Origin: Candidatus Micrarchaeota archaeon CG08_land_8_20_14_0_20_59_11
GTDB lineage: Archaea; Micrarchaeota; Micrarchaeia; Norongarragalinales; Norongarragalinaceae
DNA: 29,774 bases
Direction: 5' to 3'
Assembly (NCBI GenBank): GCA_002763345.1
Contig: PEXZ01000012.1
Location: 1-29,774, forward strand
The translations under genes were made by a program, and so were the position numbers. Under the pieces are notes generated by a model. It ran no database searches. It was not told the DNA's origin and worked only from the letters and a program-made list of their open reading frames with translations. Of the stretch, positions 3,771-26,966 are shown piece by piece. Position 1 is the stretch's first letter. Every line of letters begins with the position of its first letter.

Positions 3771-3929
3771 ATGGACTGGCTTCTCGGCGCAGCCTTGGCG
3801 GTCTGCGGATACCTTTTCCTCAGCGCGGTGCTGGAGGAGTACGATTTGGGGCTAGGCGAGATTTTCGTCGAGAAACCGCACTACGTCATTGCAGTCGCGC
3901 TCGTCGTAGCGGTGCTGGTCCTGTCCTAA
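3771..3929 (+). CDS. Small two-TM membrane protein, 52 aa (not in ORF track)
   Basis: Hand translation MDWLLGAALAVCGYLFLSAVLEEYDLGLGEIFVEKPHYVIAVALVVAVLVLS*. It starts 9 nt after the trmB stop and its stop overlaps the ftsY stop. Confidence 0.65.
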   Translation: MDWLLGAALAVCGYLFLSAVLEEYDLGLGEIFVEKPHYVIAVALVVAVLVLS

Positions 3930-5134
3930 GCCGCGATGATGCGGCTTACCAGATCCTCGGAATCGAACGCCACCAGGTTGGCGTACTCCTGGCCGGTGCC
4001 GAGAAAGAGTATCGGTATTTTGGCTTCGTAGGCGAGCGAGAGCGCGCTCCCCCCCTTCGCATCGCAGTCCAGCTTCGTCAGTATGACGCCGTCCAGCCCG
4101 ACGGCTTCCTTGAACTTCAATACCTGTTCCACGAGCGCATGCCCGGCAATTGATTCGCCGACGAAAATCTTCAGGTCGGGTTTCACGACGCGGTTGATTT
4201 TCTCCATCTCCCTGAGCAGGTTGTAGTTGGTTTCCTGCCGGCCCGCGGTGTCGATGAGAACCACGTCGATATTCTGTGCGCGGGCGTGGGTAATGGCATC
4301 GAAAGCAACCGCGGAGGGGTCGGCGCCGTAGTCGTGCTTTATCACGCGCACGCCCAATCTCCTGCCGTGCTCCTCGGACTGCTGTATCGCAGCGGCGCGG
4401 AACGTGTCCGACGCCGAGATGACGGAGGAAAGCCCGCGCTCAGAAAGGTAGCGCGATATCTTCGCAATGGTCGTCGTCTTGCCTGAGCCGTTCGGCCCGA
4501 TGAAAAGCACGACGAACGGCTTCTTCGCGGCCGCCCTCCCCGCCAAGTCAAAGGGCTTCGCGCTGAACAAATCAAGGAGAGAAGCGCGCACCTCTGCCCG
4601 TATGCTCTCGGAAAGCGCGTTCTTCGGAACCGCTTTGCCTACTAGGCGCTTGCGAAGGTCTTCCACAAGAAATTCGGCGGTGTCGAATGAAACGTCGCTT
4701 TCGAGAAGGGAAACGCGCAACTCGTCGAGCATGGGCTCCGCCTCAGCGCCGGAAATCGTGACGCTGTTCGAGAGCATGCTCCTGACGCGCGAGAATATGC
4801 CGAGCTTCGGCGCGATTTCCTTTTTCGGCTCCTCCCTCAGTTCGAATTTCGGCTCGGACGCGGGCTTGCGCTCGTGCCTGACTTCGGGAACGGGAATAAA
4901 GTGATGCACGGTTTCTTTCGGCGCCTCGACTGCCTTCTGTGGCTCGTGTTTCGGCTCCTCCTTAATCTCGGCAACAGCCTCGCGCAGAATGGCTTCCTCA
5001 ACCGCCTCTTCCTTCGGCGCAACTACGGCGGGTTTTTCCTCCGCCATGGGCTGCGGCTCCGCGGGCTTCTCCTCCCCCCTCTTGGTTAGCCCGCCTATGA
5101 AGGACTTCAGCTTGTCCTTGAGCAGCCCGAACAA
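3926..5134 (-). CDS. ftsY: Signal recognition particle receptor FtsY
   Basis: GPNGSGKTTT, DTFRAAA, DTAGR and TKLDCDAKGG motifs of SRP GTPases, plus an N-terminal amphipathic helix and an acidic linker. Confidence 0.97.
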   Translation of the reverse strand: MFGLLKDKLKSFIGGLTKRGEEKPAEPQPMAEEKPAVVAPKEEAVEEAILREAVAEIKEEPKHEPQKAVEAPKETVHHFIPVPEVRHERKPASEPKFELREEPKKEIAPKLGIFSRVRSMLSNSVTISGAEAEPMLDELRVSLLESDVSFDTAEFLVEDLRKRLVGKAVPKNALSESIRAEVRASLLDLFSAKPFDLAGRAAAKKPFVVLFIGPNGSGKTTTIAKISRYLSERGLSSVISASDTFRAAAIQQSEEHGRRLGVRVIKHDYGADPSAVAFDAITHARAQNIDVVLIDTAGRQETNYNLLREMEKINRVVKPDLKIFVGESIAGHALVEQVLKFKEAVGLDGVILTKLDCDAKGGSALSLAYEAKIPILFLGTGQEYANLVAFDSEDLVSRIIAA

Positions 5135-8582: not shown

Positions 8583-8695
8583 TGGGCCCGCGGGGATTTG
8601 GACCCCGGACGTCCAGTTGTCTCAGCCGACGCAGGGGCACACGCCCCTGCGCGTCGTATAAGACTGGCGCTCTGACCAGGCTGAGCTACGAGCCC
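8583..8695 (-). tRNA. tRNA-Ile (anticodon UAU) with 38-nt intron at 37/38 (intron 8619-8656)
   Basis: Folded by hand: acceptor GGGCTCG/CGGGCCC, discriminator A, D stem GCTC/GAGC, anticodon stem CCAGT/ACTGG, loop CT-TAT-A|A, T stem CGGGG/CCCCG. BHB motif: central helix CUUA/UGAG with 3-nt bulges UA^C and AC^A. No encoded CCA. Confidence 0.93.
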
Positions 8696-11425: not shown

Positions 11426-12877
11426 GTGGACGAAGACGTCGAAAAATTAAAGCGCATCCGAGCGGAGCTTCGGCGCACCGGGCGGGTCGAGAGCAACTCG
11501 GAACTGATGGACTCGCTCGGGATGCGCGGAAAAAAGCGCCGCGAACTGCGGGTTCGGCGCGTGAGGAGCGCGAGCGGGATATGCGTGGTGGCGGTAATGA
11601 CGCGGCCCTACGCGTGCCCGGGAAAGTGCATATACTGCCCCACGTCGGAAAACGCGCCCAAGAGCTACACGGGCGAAGAGCCGGCTGCGCTGCGCGCGAG
11701 GCAGAACGGGTTCGACGCCTACAGGCAGGTTCGCTCGCGCCTCGGGCAACTGGAGGCAATCGGGCACGAACCGAGCAAGTGCGAACTCATCGTGATGGGC
11801 GGCACCTTCAACGCCCAGCCGCGGCAGTACCAGAACGCCTTCATGAAAAAAGCATTCGAGGCGTTTAACAACAGGAAAGCCAAAACGCTCGCCGACGCGC
11901 AAAAACAAAACGAGTCCGCGAAATACCGCGTCATCGGCCTGACCTTTGAGACGCGACCCGACTGGTGCTCGGAAGGGCAGGTGCGCAAGTTCCTCGAATT
12001 CGGCGCGACCCGCATCGAGCTCGGCGTGCAGTCGCTGGACGAGGAGGTTTTGCGGCGCGTCAATCGGGGGCACGGCGTCGCCAAAGTCGCCGAGGCGACG
12101 AAAACCTGCAAGGACGCTTTTCTCAAGGTCGGCTATCATATGATGCCGGGGCTTTTCGCCGACAAAAAAAAGGACGCGGCGATGTTCCGCATCTTATTCG
12201 AAGACGGCCGGTTCAAGCCCGACATGCTCAAGATTTACCCCTGCCTCGTGCTCGGGGGGACGCCGCTCTACGAACTGTGGCGCGAAGGGAAATTCAAGCC
12301 GTACTCCGCGGAGGAGGCGGCTGCGGCAATAGCGGAATGCAAGCGCTTCGTGCCCGGGTACTGCCGAATCATGCGCATCGACAGGGACATCCCGACGAAG
12401 CTGATAGTCGACGGCGTGAAGAAGAGCAACCTGCGCGAGCTTGTGCGCGAAGAGATGGATGAGCGCGGGCTGGAATGCCGATGCATACGGTGCCGCGAAA
12501 TCGGATTGCGCGGAGGAAGAATGGGAAACCTTAAGCTCGAACGTATGGAATACGAAGCCAGCGGAGGGACGGAGTATTTCCTGTCTTTGGAAACGGGGGG
12601 ACTTCTTGCGGCTTACCTGCGGCTGCGGAAAAGGGCCGACGGCGCGTTCGGGGTGCGGGAGTTGCGCGTGCTGGGCGAACAGACGCCAGTTGGCGAGGGG
12701 ACGCGTATGGCGCAGCACCTCGGGCTGGGGGCGCGCCTGCTCGGCGAGGCGGAAAGGATTGCGGCAGACGGCGGCGCCCGCGAAATGCTCGTGCTGAGCG
12801 GAATCGGCGCGCGGCCGTATTACCGAAAACGTGGTTATAAACTTCTTGACGGTTATATGGTGAAGGGATTGCGTTGA
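11426..12877 (+). CDS. elp3: tRNA uridine(34) acetyltransferase Elp3 (radical SAM + GNAT)
   Basis: AVMTRPYACPGKCIYCP (CxxxCxxC), PKSYTG.EPA, ETRPD, ELGVQS, LKIYP.LV, CRCIRCREIG, VREL.V.G, QHLGLG.RLL..AE. Confidence 0.97.
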   Translation: MDEDVEKLKRIRAELRRTGRVESNSELMDSLGMRGKKRRELRVRRVRSASGICVVAVMTRPYACPGKCIYCPTSENAPKSYTGEEPAALRARQNGFDAYRQVRSRLGQLEAIGHEPSKCELIVMGGTFNAQPRQYQNAFMKKAFEAFNNRKAKTLADAQKQNESAKYRVIGLTFETRPDWCSEGQVRKFLEFGATRIELGVQSLDEEVLRRVNRGHGVAKVAEATKTCKDAFLKVGYHMMPGLFADKKKDAAMFRILFEDGRFKPDMLKIYPCLVLGGTPLYELWREGKFKPYSAEEAAAAIAECKRFVPGYCRIMRIDRDIPTKLIVDGVKKSNLRELVREEMDERGLECRCIRCREIGLRGGRMGNLKLERMEYEASGGTEYFLSLETGGLLAAYLRLRKRADGAFGVRELRVLGEQTPVGEGTRMAQHLGLGARLLGEAERIAADGGAREMLVLSGIGARPYYRKRGYKLLDGYMVKGLR

Positions 12878-14634
12878 AGTGCGGAATCGAGATTCACCAG
12901 CGGCTTGACACGGGCAAGCTCTTTTGCAACTGCTATGCGAACCCGTCGGCCGATGGGACCGGGGCAGGCGGGGGGAAGACGCTGATTGTGCGGCGGATGC
13001 GCGCGGTCGCGGGCGAGATGGGCGGGGTGGACGCGGCTGCGGGGTTCGAGGCGCGGAAGGCTAGGGAATACGGATACGAGGCGCCGTCGGATTCCTCCTG
13101 CCTCGTGGAATGCGACGAGGCACCGCCTTTCGGGATTAATCGGGAAGCGGTTGCGATTGCGCTCGGCATAGCGCTCGCGCTGCACTGCAAGCCAGTTGAG
13201 GAGCTGCACGTGATGCGCAAGACCGTGCTGGACGGCTCCGCGATTTCGGGGTTCCAAAGGACGGCGTTGCTGGCAACTGACGGGCATATCGACACTTCGC
13301 AGGGCAGGGTCGGAATCCAGAGCGTCTGCGTCGAAGAGGAGAGCGCGGGAATACTCGGGAAAAACAGGTTCCGCTTGGACAGGCTGGGAATACCGCTCGT
13401 CGAGATTGCGACGGACGCCTCCATAAAAAGCGGCAGCCACTGCCGTGAAACAGCGGAGGCAATCGGGCTGCTCCTGCGCGGCGCGCGCATACAACGGGGG
13501 CTCGGCAGCATCAGGCAGGACGTGAACGTTTCTATCGACGGCGGCAGCCGGGTTGAGATAAAGGGCGCGCAGGAGCTTTCCGCGCTTGACGGAATGGTCG
13601 GGAACGAGGTGGTGCGGCAGGAGGCGCTCGTCGCGCTGAAGGAAAAACTCGGGGGGACGAAGCAGGACGGAAAAATAACGGACGTGACGAAGGAAGCATC
13701 TGCGCTGAAACTGCGCGGCAGGGTTGTCGGCGTAAAGCTGAGGGGATTGGCGGGACTATTGAAAACGGAACTTTATGCGGGCAAGCGGCTCGGTTCCGAA
13801 CTCGCGGACTACGCGCGCGCCCAGGGCGCTGGCGGAATAATGCACTCCGATGAACGCGACGATGCGGCAATCGGAAAAGCGCTCGGCTGCAAAAAAGGCG
13901 ACGCGTGGGCGGTTTGCGCCGGCGAGGACGCGGAACCCGCGCTGGAGGCGGTGCTCGGAAGGGCGCAACTGCTTTCGAGGTGCGTGCCCGAGGAAACGCG
14001 GAGGGCGGACGGCGACGGAAGCGCGTTCATGCGCCCGCTGCCCGGAAGTGCGCGGATGTACCCGGAAACCGACGTGCCGCTGCTGCTGCTGAAGGAAATT
14101 GTGCCCGAAAAAATACAGCCCGTGGCTAAAAGGCTAGAACTGTTCGAAAAAATCGGGCTGAATGACGACCTCTCTAAGAAAATGCTCCGTTCCCAGCACT
14201 CGCGCGTTTTTGAAGAAAATGCGGGCGTCGATGCGATGTTCGTGGCAACCACGCTTCTCGAAACGCTGCGGAACATCGGGAGGGAGGGCGCGCCTGTAAA
14301 AACCCTCACTGACGGGGCGTTCAGGGAATTTTTCGCGGCGTACGACGAGGGGATGTTCGTCAGGGCTGCCGCCGCCGGGATACTGAAGGAGATGGCGAAT
14401 GCAAAGACGGGCGTCGCAGGCGCTGTTGAAAAGCTCGGGTTGCGGCGCATGACGAAAGCGGAACTGAAGGAAGCGGCGAAGGCAGACGGGACGTTCGAGG
14501 AAATGATGCGCAAATATAGGCTGCGCGCCGACCCCGCGGAACTGAAGGAAGCGGTTGGACGACGCCCAACTGGCTGCATCCCTCGGCTGGACGCTCGCCG
14601 AAGCGAGCGTCATACAAAAGGATGCAGCGAATAG
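12874..14634 (+). CDS. gatE: Glutamyl-tRNA(Gln) amidotransferase subunit E
   Basis: KCGIEIHQRLDTGKLFC.C, MRKTVLDGS..SGFQRT, LDRLGIPLVEIAT, RGLGSIRQDVNVSI, FMRPLPGSARMYPETD. TTG start overlapping the elp3 stop. Confidence 0.96.
   Translation: MKCGIEIHQRLDTGKLFCNCYANPSADGTGAGGGKTLIVRRMRAVAGEMGGVDAAAGFEARKAREYGYEAPSDSSCLVECDEAPPFGINREAVAIALGIALALHCKPVEELHVMRKTVLDGSAISGFQRTALLATDGHIDTSQGRVGIQSVCVEEESAGILGKNRFRLDRLGIPLVEIATDASIKSGSHCRETAEAIGLLLRGARIQRGLGSIRQDVNVSIDGGSRVEIKGAQELSALDGMVGNEVVRQEALVALKEKLGGTKQDGKITDVTKEASALKLRGRVVGVKLRGLAGLLKTELYAGKRLGSELADYARAQGAGGIMHSDERDDAAIGKALGCKKGDAWAVCAGEDAEPALEAVLGRAQLLSRCVPEETRRADGDGSAFMRPLPGSARMYPETDVPLLLLKEIVPEKIQPVAKRLELFEKIGLNDDLSKKMLRSQHSRVFEENAGVDAMFVATTLLETLRNIGREGAPVKTLTDGAFREFFAAYDEGMFVRAAAAGILKEMANAKTGVAGAVEKLGLRRMTKAELKEAAKADGTFEEMMRKYRLRADPAELKEAVGRRPTGCIPRLDARRSERHTKGCSE
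14590..14617 (+). repeat. Hairpin+ATAC element, copy 2 (within the gatE 3' end)
   Basis: GACGCTCGC-CGAA-GCGAGCGTC-ATACAA, a perfect 9-bp stem. Confidence 0.6.
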
Positions 14635-16966: not shown

Positions 16967-17040
16967 GGGCCAGTGGTATAACCTGGATAGCATGCGAGCT
17001 TGCGGAGCTTGAGATCAGGGTCCAAATCCCTGCTGGCCCG
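16967..17040 (+). tRNA. tRNA-Arg (anticodon GCG)
   Basis: Acceptor GGGCCAG/CTGGCCC, discriminator G, anticodon stem CGAGC/GCTTG, loop TT-GCG-GA, T stem CAGGG/CCCTG, A20 arginine identity element. Weak D stem; no encoded CCA. Confidence 0.88.
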
Positions 17041-17107
17041 TTGCATTGCTTTCTTTCCGCGGGCATATTACACTCCGCGCCAAAAGAAAGCGGCGTCTTG
17101 TGAGAAC

Positions 17108-20553: not shown

Positions 20554-21912
20554 CTACCACCACGATTCGCGCCTGAACAGGTACGCGGCTAACCCCTGCA
20601 TCGCCTCCGCCTTCAGCGATAGCGGCGGCGCAAACTTCGCCTTTTTCAGCGGCTTCACGAAATGCGACGCGGCTCCCCAGGATTCGGGGCTGCGGAGAAG
20701 CGCCCCGATTTCGGTTTCGAGGAAGGTTACCGCCCTCAGCCTTTCCGCGAACACGCGCCCTCCCTCGATGTAAGGTCCGCGGTGCGCGGCCTTGTGCGCG
20801 CGCACGAAATCCGCAACTGCCTTCGCTGCCGACACTGGCGGTCCCTGCACGCGCTTCAGGCGCGGGCGTTCCGCCGACTCGCACTCGACGACAAAGAAAG
20901 CGCCATCCTCCGCCATGAAGGAGGCGGTTCCCAGCATCCTGAAATCCTGAAGCGCGAGATGGCGGCTGAGCGCGCGCTCGGTTTTGTGCAACTGCGGGTA
21001 AAGGATGTCCTCGACGAGCTTTGGAGCGGCAATCTTCAGAATGACGATTGCCGTACCCCTGCTCCGCAGGGCGCGCGAAATTTCCGAGGCGGAATGCTTC
21101 CTGCGTTTTCCGAAGAAGAACGACACCGACGGCTTTGAACGGAACGCGCGGCAGAGCGCAATGAATTTGCAGAGGTTGGTTTCGGATACGACTGCCGCCG
21201 CGTTCCTGTTCTTGTCTATTGCGTCTATCACGACGAGCGGTTCGGCGAAGGGATGCCTGCGTTCCGCGTAGTACCCCTCCATGTCCACGACAACCGGCGG
21301 AATCCACTGCGCGGCTGCCTCGACCAGGTTCCTGAAGGAGCGGTAATTCAGGACGAGGTATTCGCACACCAATCCCGAGAAACCCTGCACGCGGAGTTCG
21401 GCGCCGTAGAGTCCCGCATTCTTCAGGAACTGCTTCAGCACGCGCACGTCGCGGCGCTGCGTTTCCGTGAGGCGCTTCTGCAGATAGTCCATGTGCAACG
21501 GCGAACGGTCTACCGCGCTCTTGAGTTCCTCGTGCGGCGACGTTTCGAAGCACGGGATTACCTCCACTCTGAACGCGCCGTGCTGCGCCTGCAGGTACGG
21601 GTGCTCCGCGTAGTGCTTCTCCCACTTCGCCTTCAGCGCCCTGCGCGTCGCCTTGAAGGTTTTCGCGACTATCTCTTCCTTCGAGAAGGAGCGCGGGAAC
21701 GAAACGAACAAATCGATGTCATTGCCGCCGCGCAAACCCGTGTCCCGCGCTGCCGAGCCGACGAAGCACATGCGGCACTGCTTCGGAAGGTTTTTCGAAA
21801 GCGCCGCGGAAACCCCCGCCGCGAACGCCTTCTCGGAATCCGCCTCGGACTTCGTCGGCGTTATTTTTTTGGAAACCTTCTCGGCGACGGCGTCTATTGC
21901 GTGCGACGGCAT
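20554..21912 (-). CDS. cca: CCA-adding enzyme (archaeal class I)
   Basis: VGS.ARDT.L.G.NDIDLFV, YAEHPY, V..PC...SAVDRSP.H, DVR.LK.FLK..G.YGAE....GFSG..CE.L. The ATG at 21912 lies about 23 nt after a TTTTAAA box. Confidence 0.95.
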   Translation of the reverse strand: MPSHAIDAVAEKVSKKITPTKSEADSEKAFAAGVSAALSKNLPKQCRMCFVGSAARDTGLRGGNDIDLFVSFPRSFSKEEIVAKTFKATRRALKAKWEKHYAEHPYLQAQHGAFRVEVIPCFETSPHEELKSAVDRSPLHMDYLQKRLTETQRRDVRVLKQFLKNAGLYGAELRVQGFSGLVCEYLVLNYRSFRNLVEAAAQWIPPVVVDMEGYYAERRHPFAEPLVVIDAIDKNRNAAAVVSETNLCKFIALCRAFRSKPSVSFFFGKRRKHSASEISRALRSRGTAIVILKIAAPKLVEDILYPQLHKTERALSRHLALQDFRMLGTASFMAEDGAFFVVECESAERPRLKRVQGPPVSAAKAVADFVRAHKAAHRGPYIEGGRVFAERLRAVTFLETEIGALLRSPESWGAASHFVKPLKKAKFAPPLSLKAEAMQGLAAYLFRRESWW

Positions 21913-21948
21913 GTAGAAAGCAATCGGCGCGCTCTTTAAAACATCTCG

Positions 21949-21974
21949 GTATGACGCATGCCGCCGCATGCGTC
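21949..21974 (-). repeat. Hairpin+ATAC element, copy 4
   Basis: Minus strand GACGCATGC-GGCG-GCATGCGTC-ATAC, a perfect 9-bp stem starting 3 nt after the peptidase stop. Confidence 0.6.
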
Positions 21975-21977
21975 CAG

Positions 21978-22814
21978 TCAATGAAACACCAAAAAGAGCA
22001 GCATGTCGCCTACGAGCAGGCACGTCACGAGCGCGACGAGGACGAACGGCCCGAAGCGCGGCAGGTGCCCGTAGACGAAGACATGCGTCGCGCCCGCCTT
22101 GCGCAGCTTCGCGAGCACCTCTTTCGTCGCGAGCTTGCCGAAATGCAGCTTCTTCGGCATGCGCTCGAGCGCGAGGACGTCTTCGTCCTCAACCGCGCGC
22201 AACGGGACGCGCCTGATGAGCAGTTCGTCGGATATCTGCTGCTTGAAAAGCAGGAGGAAGAACGCGCAGAATCCGAACGTGAGAAGCGCCAGCGTCTGCA
22301 GCAAGCCGAGCCCGAAAGCGATTATTCCCGCTGCGAACAACGCGCACGCCGCGGCCATCGCGTAAAGCCGCCATGAACGGAGGGACGGGCTTTTGCGTCT
22401 GACGAGCATCGCCGCGTAATTGACTGCGGTGAAAAGCGTCGCGTAGAACGACGCCGCCACGAAAACGCTGAGTATGAAGGGAAGCACGAGCAGGTACGAC
22501 GGCGGCATGAGTTGCGGGAACAGCGTCGGGTTCATGGGAAGCAGCGCGGCGATTCCGAAGAACAGGAGGACGTCCCCTGAACCGAACTGCCCCGCCTTCC
22601 AGCACACGAGCCCGAAAAGCGCGATGACGCCGAGAAGAATCGCGGTTTGCGTTATGAAGGGGACGTCGAACGTGAGGATGTCGAGCAGGACGCCGACCGC
22701 AATCATGCCGTACAGTATCTTGTCGTCTATGAAACTGGTTTTCGCATCCTGCCAAGCGGCGACGCCGCAGCCGAGAACCGCGATGCACACGCGTACCGCC
22801 GCCAAACTAAGCAT
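21978..22814 (-). CDS. Prepilin/class III signal peptidase (A24, PibD/FlaK-like)
   Basis: Multi-TM protein with the first Asp in QDAKT..IDD, the second in FGSGDV (GxGD), and a C-terminal PRFGPF..V.L motif. The ATG at 22814 avoids overlap with the upstream gene. Confidence 0.85.
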   Translation of the reverse strand: MLSLAAVRVCIAVLGCGVAAWQDAKTSFIDDKILYGMIAVGVLLDILTFDVPFITQTAILLGVIALFGLVCWKAGQFGSGDVLLFFGIAALLPMNPTLFPQLMPPSYLLVLPFILSVFVAASFYATLFTAVNYAAMLVRRKSPSLRSWRLYAMAAACALFAAGIIAFGLGLLQTLALLTFGFCAFFLLLFKQQISDELLIRRVPLRAVEDEDVLALERMPKKLHFGKLATKEVLAKLRKAGATHVFVYGHLPRFGPFVLVALVTCLLVGDMLLFLVFH

Positions 22815-25655: not shown

Positions 25656-26966
25656 TTACTTCAGCTTGCCGCCGAATTTTTTCTCCAACTGCTTCAGGAG
25701 TCCGCGGTTCCTTCCCAGCTGCTTCATCATCTTGGACACGCGCTCGAAATTATTGACCAGGTCGCGCACGTCGTCGGGCTTCAATCCTGCGCCCTTCGCA
25801 ACTCGCTCCTGCCGCACCTTTGCCTTCATCAAGTCGGGGTTCTTGCGCTCCTTCGACGTCATGCTCAGCACCGCCGCCTCGAACGCTTTCATCTTCTCCT
25901 CGCTTTTTCCTAGCATCTCCTCGGGCAGGTCGTACGCGCCCAGCATCTGCATGATTTGCTTCAGGGGACCCATGCGCTTCATCGCACGCATTTGCGCGAG
26001 GAAGGTTTCGTAATTGAGCTCGCCGCCCTCCATCGCCTTCTGGAGCGCTTCTTCGTCGGACGCCTCGCGCACCTTCTCCATCAGTGCGGGCAAGTCGGGA
26101 AAGCCCGTGAGTTGCGCGACGAATCCCTGGCTGTCGAACGGCTTGAGGTCGCCGATTTTTTCTCCTGTTCCGATGAATGCAACGCGGGCGCCGGATACGG
26201 CGACGCTGCTGAGCGCGCCGCCTCCCTTTCCGGAGCCGTCCATCTTCGTTATGACTACGCCTGAAACGCCTACGGAATCGTTGGACTCCTTCGCCTGCTT
26301 TCCAGCCACCTGCCCCAAGTCCGCGGACACGACGAGGAACGTCTCGTCGGGTTTGAAGGCGTCCTTCACGTCCTGCAGTTCCTTGATTAGCGCGGCGTCC
26401 ATGGCGCTTCTGCCTGCGGAATCGAAAATGAGGACGTCGTGCTTGTTGTTGTCGGAGCGCAGGGCGTCGACGGCAATCTTCGCGGCATTCTTCTCGGCCT
26501 TCTCGCCATAGAATCCGCATTTCGCCTGCGCGCTGAGCTGGTGGAGCTGTTCGAATGCAGCGGGGCGGTGCACGTCGCCCGCGATTACCGCAACCTTGAG
26601 CCCCTTCGATTGGTAGAACTTGGCTAGCTTCGCTATCGTGGTGGTTTTGCCCGCGCCGTAAAGCCCGAGCATGAGGATGCGCTGCTTGCCGAGCTTCGGC
26701 ACGTAGGATTCGCCGATTACACGCAGCAGCTCGTCGTAGACGACCCGCACCACGTGTTCGCGCTGGCTAAGCCCGGGAAGCTGCTTCTCCTTCAGCGCGC
26801 GCTCCTCGATGCGCTTGGTGAGCTCCATCACGAGCCGCACGTTCACGTCGTTGGAGATGAGGACGCGCTGCAACTCCTTCACGAGTTCCTTCACTGCGGC
26901 TTCGTCAACTAGCGCCGCGCCAGTGATGCGCGCCAGCGCCTTGCGTATGCCCGCGCCCAAGTCCAT
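25656..26966 (-). CDS. srp54: Signal recognition particle 54-kDa protein
   Basis: GLYGAGKTTT, D.HRPAAFEQL, DSAGR, TKMDGSGKGGGALS, and a Met-rich M domain (MKRMGPL..IMQML; SMT.KER.NP). Confidence 0.97.
   Translation of the reverse strand: MDLGAGIRKALARITGAALVDEAAVKELVKELQRVLISNDVNVRLVMELTKRIEERALKEKQLPGLSQREHVVRVVYDELLRVIGESYVPKLGKQRILMLGLYGAGKTTTIAKLAKFYQSKGLKVAVIAGDVHRPAAFEQLHQLSAQAKCGFYGEKAEKNAAKIAVDALRSDNNKHDVLIFDSAGRSAMDAALIKELQDVKDAFKPDETFLVVSADLGQVAGKQAKESNDSVGVSGVVITKMDGSGKGGGALSSVAVSGARVAFIGTGEKIGDLKPFDSQGFVAQLTGFPDLPALMEKVREASDEEALQKAMEGGELNYETFLAQMRAMKRMGPLKQIMQMLGAYDLPEEMLGKSEEKMKAFEAAVLSMTSKERKNPDLMKAKVRQERVAKGAGLKPDDVRDLVNNFERVSKMMKQLGRNRGLLKQLEKKFGGKLK

What the first reader, a model, noticed from the sequence alone, without database searches (positions are those of the whole stretch)
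8595..8602. C55 instead of the near-universal U55 in the T-loop of BOTH tRNAs: Psi55 loss or a new C-to-U editing system
Seen: tRNA-Ile (minus strand, 8602-8596) and tRNA-Arg (17021-17027) both have the T-loop TCCAAAT, i.e. U54-C55-C56, inside perfect 5-bp T stems with different sequences. That argues against a single mutation or error. Established: position 55 is U (converted to Psi55 by Pus10/Cbf5 in archaea) in almost all tRNAs and contacts G18, and Methanopyrus kandleri restores genomically encoded C8 to U8 with a dedicated deaminase. Inference: this lineage either dispensed with Psi55 and rewired the tRNA elbow, or edits C55 to U with an undescribed deaminase. This is the best candidate for a novel system in this window.
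Basis: partly seen in the sequence, partly recalled or inferred. Interest (0 to 1): 0.8.

Follow-up and report, generated by a model that had tools for sequence, protein, structure and literature searches.

The report
Working archaeal tRNAs with C55
Both tRNA genes in this piece of a tiny groundwater archaeon (Micrarchaeota) really carry a C where almost all tRNAs have the U that becomes pseudouridine 55. This is a recurrent, tolerated variant seen in a minority of tRNAs in several archaeal and bacterial lineages, not a sign of a new RNA-editing system.

Summary
**Observation: confirmed.**
- tRNA-Ile(UAU, with intron; 8583-8695, minus strand) and tRNA-Arg(GCG; 16967-17040, plus strand) are bona fide tRNAs. 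Both have T-loop TCCAAAT, with C55 at 8601 and 17022.
- Independent DNA samples and sister genomes show the same letters.

**The reading as a new system does not hold.**
- In this genome 4 of 26 tRNAs have C55. In a 90%-complete sister species it is 7 of 37. The rest keep U55.
- G18-G19 is unchanged, so the elbow is not rewired.
- No THUMP-domain protein was found, and the only deaminase is dCMP-deaminase-like.
- Cbf5 is present in the lineage, and its partner Nop10 is present in this genome.

**C55 is not unique to this lineage.**
- It also occurs in ANME-1 archaea and Nanoarchaeota that do have Pus10.
- It is published for Lactiplantibacillus plantarum tRNA-Gly.
- This scan has noted it before in more than 200 other genomes.

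**What is new, modestly.**
- Pus10 was not found in any of 61 genomes of this order, nor in two further Micrarchaeota families.
- In those clades about 10% of GGG-stem T arms carry C55, against about 1.6% in Pus10-bearing Micrarchaeota.
- The link did not replicate in Nanoarchaeota.

**Best reading:** C55 stays in the mature tRNA as a tolerated, near-neutral variant. Editing cannot be excluded without RNA data.

The parts
8583..8695 (-). tRNA-Ile gene, anticodon UAU, with an intron; carries C55
   Evidence: Rfam RF00005 51.7 bits. ARAGORN tRNA-Ile(tat) i(40,38). It is the only UAU gene found in the assembly.
8619..8656 (-). 38-nt intron of tRNA-Ile, in the anticodon loop; bounds approximate
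   Evidence: ARAGORN intron call i(40,38). The Rfam alignment shows a 39-nt insertion after A37. The exact splice points were not tested.
8596..8602 (-). T-loop of tRNA-Ile, T54-C55-C56-A-A-A-T60; C55 = 8601
   Evidence: Read from the sequence. No variant listed in four DNA runs. The orthologue in same-genus G002 has TTCAAAT.
16967..17040 (+). tRNA-Arg gene, anticodon GCG, no intron; carries C55
   Evidence: Rfam 47.5 bits. ARAGORN. It is the only GCG gene in G000 and in G002.
17021..17027 (+). T-loop of tRNA-Arg, T54-C55-C56-A-A-A-T60; C55 = 17022
   Evidence: Read from the sequence. C55 is shared by G001 and G002 (genus) and by G016, G020 and G022 (another genus of the family). All other orthologues found have U55.

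Best explanation
These are two ordinary, functional archaeal tRNA genes. Position 55 has mutated from U to C, and the C most likely stays in the mature tRNA.

**How the T-loop copes (inferred).** A C cannot be isomerised to pseudouridine, so these tRNAs simply lack Psi55. The loop still folds because its main supports are intact: the G53-C61 pair, the U54-A58 reverse-Hoogsteen pair and the G19-C56 pair. Only the weaker G18-55 contact and the N3-H to phosphate turn contact are changed.

**How it evolves (shown and inferred).** The change is tolerated and close to neutral or slightly harmful. It comes and goes in different tRNAs of small-genome archaea:
- species-level flips occur in both directions;
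- a few cases have persisted for a long time, such as tRNA-Lys(CUU).

In this branch of Micrarchaeota the variant is unusually common, at 15-19% of tRNA genes in the genus. This may be because Pus10, the dedicated Psi54/55 synthase, is missing and selection on U55 is weaker.

**Status of each step.**
- Shown: the sequence facts and their distribution.
- Inferred: that C55 stays unedited, that the tRNAs work, and any causal role of Pus10 loss.
For: **Genuine tRNAs and sole genes for their anticodons**
- Rfam and ARAGORN support.
- In the 90%-complete sister genome each of the 7 C55 tRNAs is the only gene for its anticodon, apart from the intron-bearing tRNA that ARAGORN mis-reads (probably CAU), for which this was not checked. 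tRNA-Arg(GCG) is the only reader of CGY codons there.

**A minority trait**
- 4 of 26 tRNAs here have C55: Pro-CGG, Ile-UAU, Arg-GCG and Lys-CUU.
- 7 of 37 in G002.

**Sporadic turnover**
- Ile-UAU has C55 in G000 only; G002 and more than 15 other orthologues have U55.
- The intron-bearing tRNA next to Pro-CGG has U55 in G000 but C55 in G002.
- Pro-CGG has C55 only in the genus. Arg-GCG has it in two genera. Lys-CUU has it in four families, one of them outside the order.

**Only position 55 varies**
- In 119 distinct tRNAs of the order, position 55 reads 87 T, 27 C and 5 G.
- Positions 53, 54, 56, 58 and 61 are at least 98% invariant.

**No compensating change**
- G18-G19 is kept in all C55 tRNAs aligned.

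**Same variant elsewhere, in genomes with Pus10**
- ANME-1 tRNA-Gly(GCC), Thr(GGU) and Met(CAU); three tRNA-Ala genes in another genome; all five of those genomes have Pus10 above 499 bits.
- Nanoarchaeota.

**Published bacterial case**
- L. plantarum tRNA-Gly has a natural C55 and is glycylated as well as its C55U mutant (PMC10464925).
Against: - No RNA-level data. No RNA run holding this sequence was listed, so retention of C55 in the mature tRNA is inferred, not seen.
- Psi55 is described as the most universally conserved tRNA modification and as important for tertiary stability (PMC7912444, PMC6138745). A cost is therefore expected.
- Long persistence of C55 in some tRNAs could mean it is more than neutral. 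Examples are Lys-CUU across families and ANME-1 Gly-GCC across about 28 species-level genomes.
- The genome is only 71.5% complete, so tRNA counts are partial.
Confidence: 0.75

Rival explanations
1. Loss of Pus10 in this branch of Micrarchaeota relaxed selection on U55, and that is why C55 is so frequent here. This is a causal add-on to the best explanation rather than a full alternative.
For: **Pus10 is clade-specific within the phylum**
- Found at over 200 bits in families f12 (22/22), f19 (46/46), f21 (9/10) and others.
- Not found in the own order (0/29 in this sample, 0/61), in f13 (0/64), or in f14 (one match above the cut-off among 47).

**Pattern counts, summed by hand** (C55 arms GGGTCCRAWTCCC against U55 arms GGGTTCRAWTCCC)
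- Own order: 48 vs 411.
- f13: 128 vs 992.
- f14: 64 vs 758.
- Together about 10.0% C55.
- Pus10-bearing families: 21 vs 1258, or 1.6%. At least 5 of those 21 are not in tRNAs.

**Specificity**
- Variation is confined to position 55.
Against: - Pus10 loss may amount to only one to three evolutionary events, so related genomes are not independent samples.
- The Nanoarchaeota replicate shows no link. The C55 pattern occurs in 26 of 185 Pus10-bearing genomes and in 1 of 16 without Pus10.
- ANME-1 genomes have 3-4 C55 tRNAs each and a full Pus10.
- Within the own order, family f9 (no Pus10) had 0 of 5 genomes with the pattern.
- Cbf5 and Nop10 may still make Psi55.
Confidence: 0.3
2. C55 is restored to U55 after transcription by an undescribed cytidine deaminase. 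This would be C-to-U tRNA editing, analogous to CDAT8 acting on C8 in Methanopyrus kandleri.
For: - The genome encodes a C at a position where U is expected.
- Free flipping between T and C at the DNA level among close relatives is what a general editing activity would also permit.
Against: - No THUMP-domain protein in G000, G001, G002, G016 or G008.
- The only CDA-fold gene is a 141-aa ComEB/dCMP-deaminase-like protein with no RNA-binding domain. It scores 155.7 bits to TIGR02571 but only 41 bits to TadA.
- Only a minority of tRNAs carry C55. After order-level divergence a neutral T/C site in a 59% G+C genome should hold far more C than about 10%.
- The same variant is scattered over unrelated archaea and bacteria. 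This would need many independent editing systems.
Confidence: 0.05
3. C55 is selected for in particular tRNAs. It might exempt them from a T-loop modification or from a partner that reads Psi55, or tune elbow stability, making it a functional mark rather than drift.
For: - Long persistence in specific isoacceptors: tRNA-Lys(CUU) across families f1, f7, f9 and f14.
- ANME-1 tRNA-Gly(GCC): an exact 26-nt 3' half is shared by 30 records, nearly all ANME-1/Methanophagales-type MAGs.
Against: - There is no consistent set of isoacceptors across lineages. Micrarchaeota have Lys, Arg, Pro, Gly, Val and Ile; ANME-1 has Gly, Thr and Met; Nanoarchaeota have many others.
- Species-level gains with U55 in all other orthologues, such as Ile-UAU, look like drift.
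Confidence: 0.1
4. The C55 genes are pseudogenes, contaminant DNA or sequencing errors.
For: The MAG is fragmented (84 contigs, 71.5% complete).
Against: - Perfect cloverleaves with high Rfam scores.
- Sole genes for their anticodons.
- The same bases appear in independent samples and sister MAGs.
- Estimated contamination is 0.25%.
Confidence: 0.02

Closest known systems
Lactiplantibacillus plantarum tRNA-Gly (all isoacceptors except GCC) with natural C55 (J Biochem 2023, PMC10464925)
   Same: A genomically encoded C at position 55 in an otherwise canonical T-loop of a working elongator tRNA. It affects a minority of the organism's tRNAs. [quoted passage not shown]
   Different: That case is a bacterium with TruB and concerns one amino-acid family. 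Here it is an archaeon in which Pus10 was not found, and several amino-acid families are affected: Ile, Arg, Pro and Lys, plus Val and Gly in the sister species.
C55 tRNAs of ANME-1/Methanophagales and of Nanoarchaeota
   Same: Archaeal tRNAs with T54-C55-C56 in perfect T arms and a normal G18-G19: Gly-GCC, Thr-GGU and Met-CAU in ANME-1, and assorted types in Nanoarchaeota.
   Different: Those genomes encode full-length Pus10. In ANME-1 the same three or four tRNAs carry C55 across many species, whereas in the window's lineage the set changes between sister species.
Canonical archaeal elongator tRNA with Psi55 made by Pus10 or, in vitro, by Cbf5-Nop10 (PMC1616971, PMC2018633, PMC6138745, PMC7912444)
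   Same: Everything except position 55: the cloverleaf, G18-G19, U54-A58, C56, G53-C61, and an intron in the anticodon loop of tRNA-Ile.
   Different: Position 55 is C, so Psi55 cannot be formed. Pus10 was not found in the order, while Cbf5 and Nop10 are present.
C-to-U editing of C8 by CDAT8 in Methanopyrus kandleri (recalled from the literature, not checked here)
   Same: A C is encoded in the genome at a position where tRNA structure normally needs a U.
   Different: CDAT8 is a CDA+THUMP protein, and as I recall most M. kandleri tRNAs carry C8. Here no THUMP protein was found and only about 15% of tRNAs carry C55.

Membership tests
tRNA (Rfam RF00005), archaeal elongator type | Cloverleaf scoring above the family's gathering score | tested here: met
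   51.7 and 47.5 bits against a cut-off of 29
tRNA (Rfam RF00005), archaeal elongator type | Conserved T-loop and elbow set: G53-C61, U54, U55, C56, A58, G18-G19 | tested here: not met
   All are present except U55, which is C in both genes
Natural C55 tRNAs (as L. plantarum tRNA-Gly) | C at position 55 in an otherwise canonical T arm, with G18-G19 unchanged | tested here: met
Natural C55 tRNAs (as L. plantarum tRNA-Gly) | The C55 tRNA is in use: it is the sole gene for its anticodon and is conserved in relatives | tested here: met
   Each is a single gene per anticodon in G000 and G002. Arg-GCG C55 is shared by three species of the genus
Natural C55 tRNAs (as L. plantarum tRNA-Gly) | C55 remains in the mature tRNA, and aminoacylation is normal | not testable with these tools
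   No RNA run was listed. This needs tRNA sequencing and charging assays
tRNA C-to-U editing system (CDAT8-like) | A deaminase with an RNA-binding (THUMP) domain encoded in the genome | tested here: not met
   No THUMP hit in five genomes, and only a ComEB/dCMP-deaminase-like CDA. G000 is 71.5% complete, but G002 (90%) and G008 (93%) also lack it
tRNA C-to-U editing system (CDAT8-like) | RNA differs from DNA at the edited site | not testable with these tools
   No RNA run was listed
Lineage without Psi55 | Pus10 absent | tested here: met
   No match above the cut-off in 61 genomes of the order, and the weak hits lie on Cbf5. A protein query also found nothing. The model finds Pus10 at 200-385 bits in other Micrarchaeota
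Lineage without Psi55 | Cbf5 and Nop10, the alternative Psi55 route, absent | tested here: not met
   TruB_N is found in 54 of 61 genomes, and in 21 of 21 good-quality ones. G002 Cbf5 has DKCLD+TruB_N+TruB_C_2+PUA. Nop10 is present in G000
Lineage without Psi55 | U55 given up across the tRNA set | tested here: not met
   22 of 26 tRNAs (G000) and 29 of 37 (G002) keep U55

The most novel reading that the evidence does not exclude
In three Micrarchaeota clades where Pus10 is not found, U55 has become a 'soft' position. About one in ten GGG-stem T arms carries C55, against about one in sixty in Pus10-bearing sister families. In the window's genus the figure is 15-19% of all tRNA genes. If Pus10 loss is the cause, much of the near-universal conservation of U55 would be due to the need to make Psi55 rather than to the base itself. 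These organisms would then be natural experiments in living with partly Psi55-free tRNAs.
Probability: 0.25. Interest if true: 0.5.

Novelty: new member of a known kind. Interest (0 to 1): 0.3.

Why it matters
U55/Psi55 is treated as one of the most invariant features of tRNA. This window adds an archaeal lineage in which a sizeable minority of essential, single-copy tRNAs do without it, and in which the dedicated synthase Pus10 is also missing.

It does not point to a new molecular system. The same variant is published for a bacterium, recurs in other archaea that have Pus10, and has been noted many times in this scan.

Its value is as a data point:
- for annotation, C55 should not be read as a pseudogene mark;
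- for the question of how much of U55's conservation is owed to pseudouridylation.

Tried and rejected
- **ARAGORN in default mode** found only tRNA-Arg. The intron-bearing tRNA-Ile needed intron mode or Rfam. With introns allowed, ARAGORN often mis-names intron-bearing tRNAs and gives spurious 'long-intron' calls. I ignored calls over 200 nt and used only the T arms.
- **RNA evidence for editing:** no RNA run holding the sequence was listed, so C versus U in the transcript could not be examined.
- **Halobacteriota survey:** 61 of 201 genomes hit the C55 pattern. The first 12 fetched hits lay in no ARAGORN-called tRNA and mostly looked like G+C-rich coding sequence, one being possibly tRNA-like. 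That tally overstates C55 tRNAs, and the backwards-pattern control is too lenient in G+C-rich genomes. Only the ANME-1-type and G387 hits were verified as tRNAs.
- **TrmY (PF04013)** as a co-loss marker for Pus10 was absent from Pus10-less and Pus10-bearing Micrarchaeota alike, so it is uninformative.
- **Pus10 link in a second phylum (Nanoarchaeota):** not replicated.
- **Family sums** of pattern counts were added by hand, so small arithmetic errors are possible.
- **No structure or complex prediction** was run; none bears on the question.

Full report
**1. The observation**

The window is contig C59 of a 789-kb metagenome-assembled genome with 84 contigs, 58.7% G+C, 71.5% completeness and 0.25% contamination. 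Its SRP54 is 92-94% identical to proteins of 'Candidatus Micrarchaeota' and uncultured-archaeon MAGs. The DNA is held by many groundwater and aquifer metagenome runs.

Rfam finds exactly two RNA genes in the window, both tRNAs:
- 8583-8695 on the minus strand, 51.7 bits;
- 16967-17040 on the plus strand, 47.5 bits (cut-off 29).

ARAGORN names them tRNA-Ile(UAU) with a 38-nt intron, and tRNA-Arg(GCG).

Read from the sequence:
- The Ile T arm is CGGGG-TCCAAAT-CCCCG, with C55 at 8601.
- The Arg T arm is CAGGG-TCCAAAT-CCCTG, with C55 at 17022.
- G53-C61, U54, C56 and A58 are canonical.

It is not an assembly artefact:
- Contigs from four other DNA runs cover both genes, and no variant is listed at either site. 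One contig spans 8400-8864 without a single difference.
- Two sister MAGs carry C55 in tRNA-Arg(GCG). One has TCCGAAT instead of TCCAAAT, so the neighbouring base has changed while C55 stayed.

**2. How far it goes in this genome and its relatives**

*Within the genome and genus*
- In the whole assembly, 26 credible tRNAs were found. Four have C55: Pro-CGG, Ile-UAU, Arg-GCG and Lys-CUU. One (Cys-GCA) has G55, and the rest have U55.
- For the 90%-complete sister species G002 I collected all 37 Rfam tRNA matches. 29 have U55 and 7 have C55: Arg-UCU, Val-CAC, Pro-CGG, Lys-CUU, Arg-GCG, Gly-CCC and an intron-bearing tRNA. One (Cys) has G55.
- Each named C55 tRNA is the only gene for its anticodon. 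They must therefore be in use.

*Orthologues across 60 relatives show sporadic turnover*
- Ile-UAU has C55 only in G000. G002 and all other orthologues recovered have U55.
- The intron-bearing tRNA next to Pro-CGG has U55 in G000 and C55 in G002.
- Pro-CGG C55 is confined to the genus.
- Arg-GCG C55 occurs in the genus and in three genomes of one other genus.
- Lys-CUU C55 occurs in families f1, f7 and f9 of the order and in f14 outside it, interleaved with U55 forms.

*The variation is specific to position 55*
- In 119 distinct tRNAs from loci of the order, position 55 reads 87 T, 27 C and 5 G.
- Positions 53, 54, 56, 58 and 61 are at least 98% invariant. The one or two deviants at each are mostly mis-registered T arms.
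- This sample is enriched for orthologues of the four C55 tRNAs, so its 23% C55 is not a frequency estimate.
- The D-loop G18-G19 is unchanged in every C55 tRNA aligned. There is no 'rewired elbow'.

**3. The enzymes**

*Pus10*
- TIGR01213 gave no hit above its cut-off in G000 or in any of 60 relatives of the order. The weak hits (17-37 bits, model positions about 290-373) lie on the same coordinates as the TruB_N hits, that is, on Cbf5.
- A Micrarchaeota Pus10 protein used as query also found nothing in the five nearest genomes.
- The model is sensitive in this phylum. It finds Pus10 at 200-385 bits in 97 of 251 Micrarchaeota genomes, in a clade-specific way: all of families f12 and f19, for example, and none of the own order or f13.

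*Cbf5 and Nop10*
- Cbf5 (TruB_N) is present in 54 of 61 genomes of the order and in 21 of 21 good-quality ones.
- The G002 protein has DKCLD, TruB_N, TruB_C_2 and PUA domains.
- Nop10 is encoded in G000 itself. The absence of Cbf5 from G000 and G001 is therefore most simply explained by incompleteness.
- According to the literature, Cbf5(-Nop10) can form tRNA Psi55 in vitro, while in Haloferax volcanii Pus10 does it in vivo (PMC1616971, PMC2018633, PMC6138745).
- Whether U55 tRNAs of this lineage carry Psi55 therefore cannot be told from sequence.

*Editing candidates*
- No THUMP domain was found in G000, G001, G002, G016 or G008.
- The only CDA-fold gene is a 141-aa ComEB/dCMP-deaminase-like protein.
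- Nothing resembles a tRNA cytidine deaminase.

*TrmY*
- TrmY is absent from Pus10-less and Pus10-bearing Micrarchaeota alike.

**4. Is C55 tied to Pus10 loss?**

*Within Micrarchaeota*

I counted exact matches to GGGTCCRAWTCCC (C55 arm) and GGGTTCRAWTCCC (U55 arm) in the same 251 genomes. The backwards-pattern control gave about 14 hits in all. The family totals below are my hand sums.

| Group | Pus10 | C55 arms | U55 arms | C55 share |
|---|---|---|---|---|
| Own order | not found | 48 | 411 | 10.5% |
| f13 | not found | 128 | 992 | 11.4% |
| f14 | one match above the cut-off among 47 | 64 | 758 | 7.8% |
| Families with Pus10 | present | 21 | 1258 | 1.6% |

At least five of the 21 hits in Pus10-bearing families are not in tRNAs. 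That is a six- to eight-fold contrast. It rests on perhaps one to three loss events, so it is suggestive only.

*Outside the phylum the link fails*
- ANME-1/Methanophagales-type genomes carry C55 in tRNA-Gly(GCC), Thr(GGU) and elongator Met(CAU). Another Halobacteriota genome carries it in three tRNA-Ala genes. All five genomes tested have full-length Pus10 at 499-523 bits.
- In a 201-genome Nanoarchaeota sample, the C55 pattern occurs in 26 of 185 genomes with Pus10 and in 1 of 16 without. 13 of 20 fetched hits are ARAGORN tRNAs.
- Real C55 tRNAs also occur in Pus10-bearing Micrarchaeota: Trp, Asp, Lys, Gly, His, Thr and Arg.

**5. What is known**

- A review of T-loop modifications calls Psi55 the most universally conserved tRNA modification and lists no C55 exceptions (PMC7912444).
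- A 2023 paper reports that L. plantarum tRNA-Gly species other than GCC have a natural C55. It calls this unique, and shows that the C55U mutant is charged equally well (PMC10464925).
- The notes of this scan hold 224 findings in at least 213 genomes that mention C55 tRNAs. They include followed-up cases in Patescibacteria and Succinivibrionaceae and at least seven archaeal windows.
- These notes are unchecked leads, but together with my own finds they show the variant is widespread at low frequency.
- I found no paper on tRNA T-loops or pseudouridine synthases of Micrarchaeota.

**6. Reading**

The simplest account is that C55 is a tolerated substitution that stays in the mature tRNA.
- The T-loop is held by G53-C61, U54-A58 and G19-C56, all intact here. 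Only the G18-55 contact and the turn hydrogen bond from N3-H of residue 55 are affected.
- As an analogy from my own knowledge, not tested here: C33 replaces the U-turn U33 in some initiator tRNAs.

C55 stays near 10% rather than drifting towards the genomic G+C level after order-level divergence. This argues that it is still mildly selected against, and equally argues against a general editing activity that would make T and C equivalent.

Its high frequency in this branch may reflect weaker selection after Pus10 loss, small population size, or both. I put about 0.3 on a causal role for Pus10 loss.

Editing remains possible in principle (about 0.05), but has no enzyme candidate and would have to be re-invented in many lineages.

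**7. Verdict**

It is ordinary in kind: a further, archaeal, set of natural C55 tRNAs. The modestly new context is a Pus10-less clade with an unusually high C55 share. It is not a new system.

Noticed in passing
L149:2775-2846 (G000 contig C80, outside the window); also L180, L177, L162, L175, L176: tRNA-Cys(GCA) of this order has G at position 55 (T-loop TGCAACT; CGCGACT in G033) together with A18 in the D-loop (AGCAGCT or AGCAGTT). Relatives with U55 (TTCGACT) have G18 (AGCGGCT). So A18/G55 covaries with G18/U55, an alternative elbow contact. An earlier scan note reports the same pairing in CPR bacteria.
   Followed up: partly
Genomes G338, G346, G354, G386, G439, G399 (L418-L435); 30 records: ANME-1/Methanophagales-type archaea carry C55 in the same three tRNAs, Gly-GCC, Thr-GGU and elongator Met-CAU, across many species although they encode full-length Pus10. 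This is a stable C55 set, unlike the shifting set in Micrarchaeota.
   Followed up: partly
Order-wide (61 genomes) and Micrarchaeota families f13 and f14: Pus10 was not found in three Micrarchaeota clades but is present in nearly all genomes of the main other families. No THUMP-domain protein at all was found in five genomes of the window's family. This also implies no ThiI-, Trm11- or Trm14-type enzymes there.
   Followed up: partly
window 17059-17106: In contigs of two other groundwater samples (X1, X2) the 46 bases just downstream of tRNA-Arg are replaced by 8 other bases (GTGGGAAC). This is a strain-level indel next to the tRNA gene.
   Followed up: no
window 20554-22023 (-), 12874-14634 (+), 11426-12877 (+), 3926-5134 (-), 25656-26966 (-): Pfam hits for the neighbouring genes: an archaeal CCA-adding enzyme, a GatB/GatE-type amidotransferase subunit, a radical-SAM protein with the Radical_SAM_C domain, an SRP54-type GTPase (probably FtsY) and SRP54. 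The window is rich in tRNA and translation-related genes.
   Followed up: no
L405 (Nanoarchaeota genome G284, C15:4528-4540): A tRNA-like 3' part with anticodon-loop GAA and a C55 T arm that ARAGORN does not call as a tRNA. It may be a split or otherwise unusual tRNA gene, and this genome also lacks a Pus10 match.
   Followed up: no
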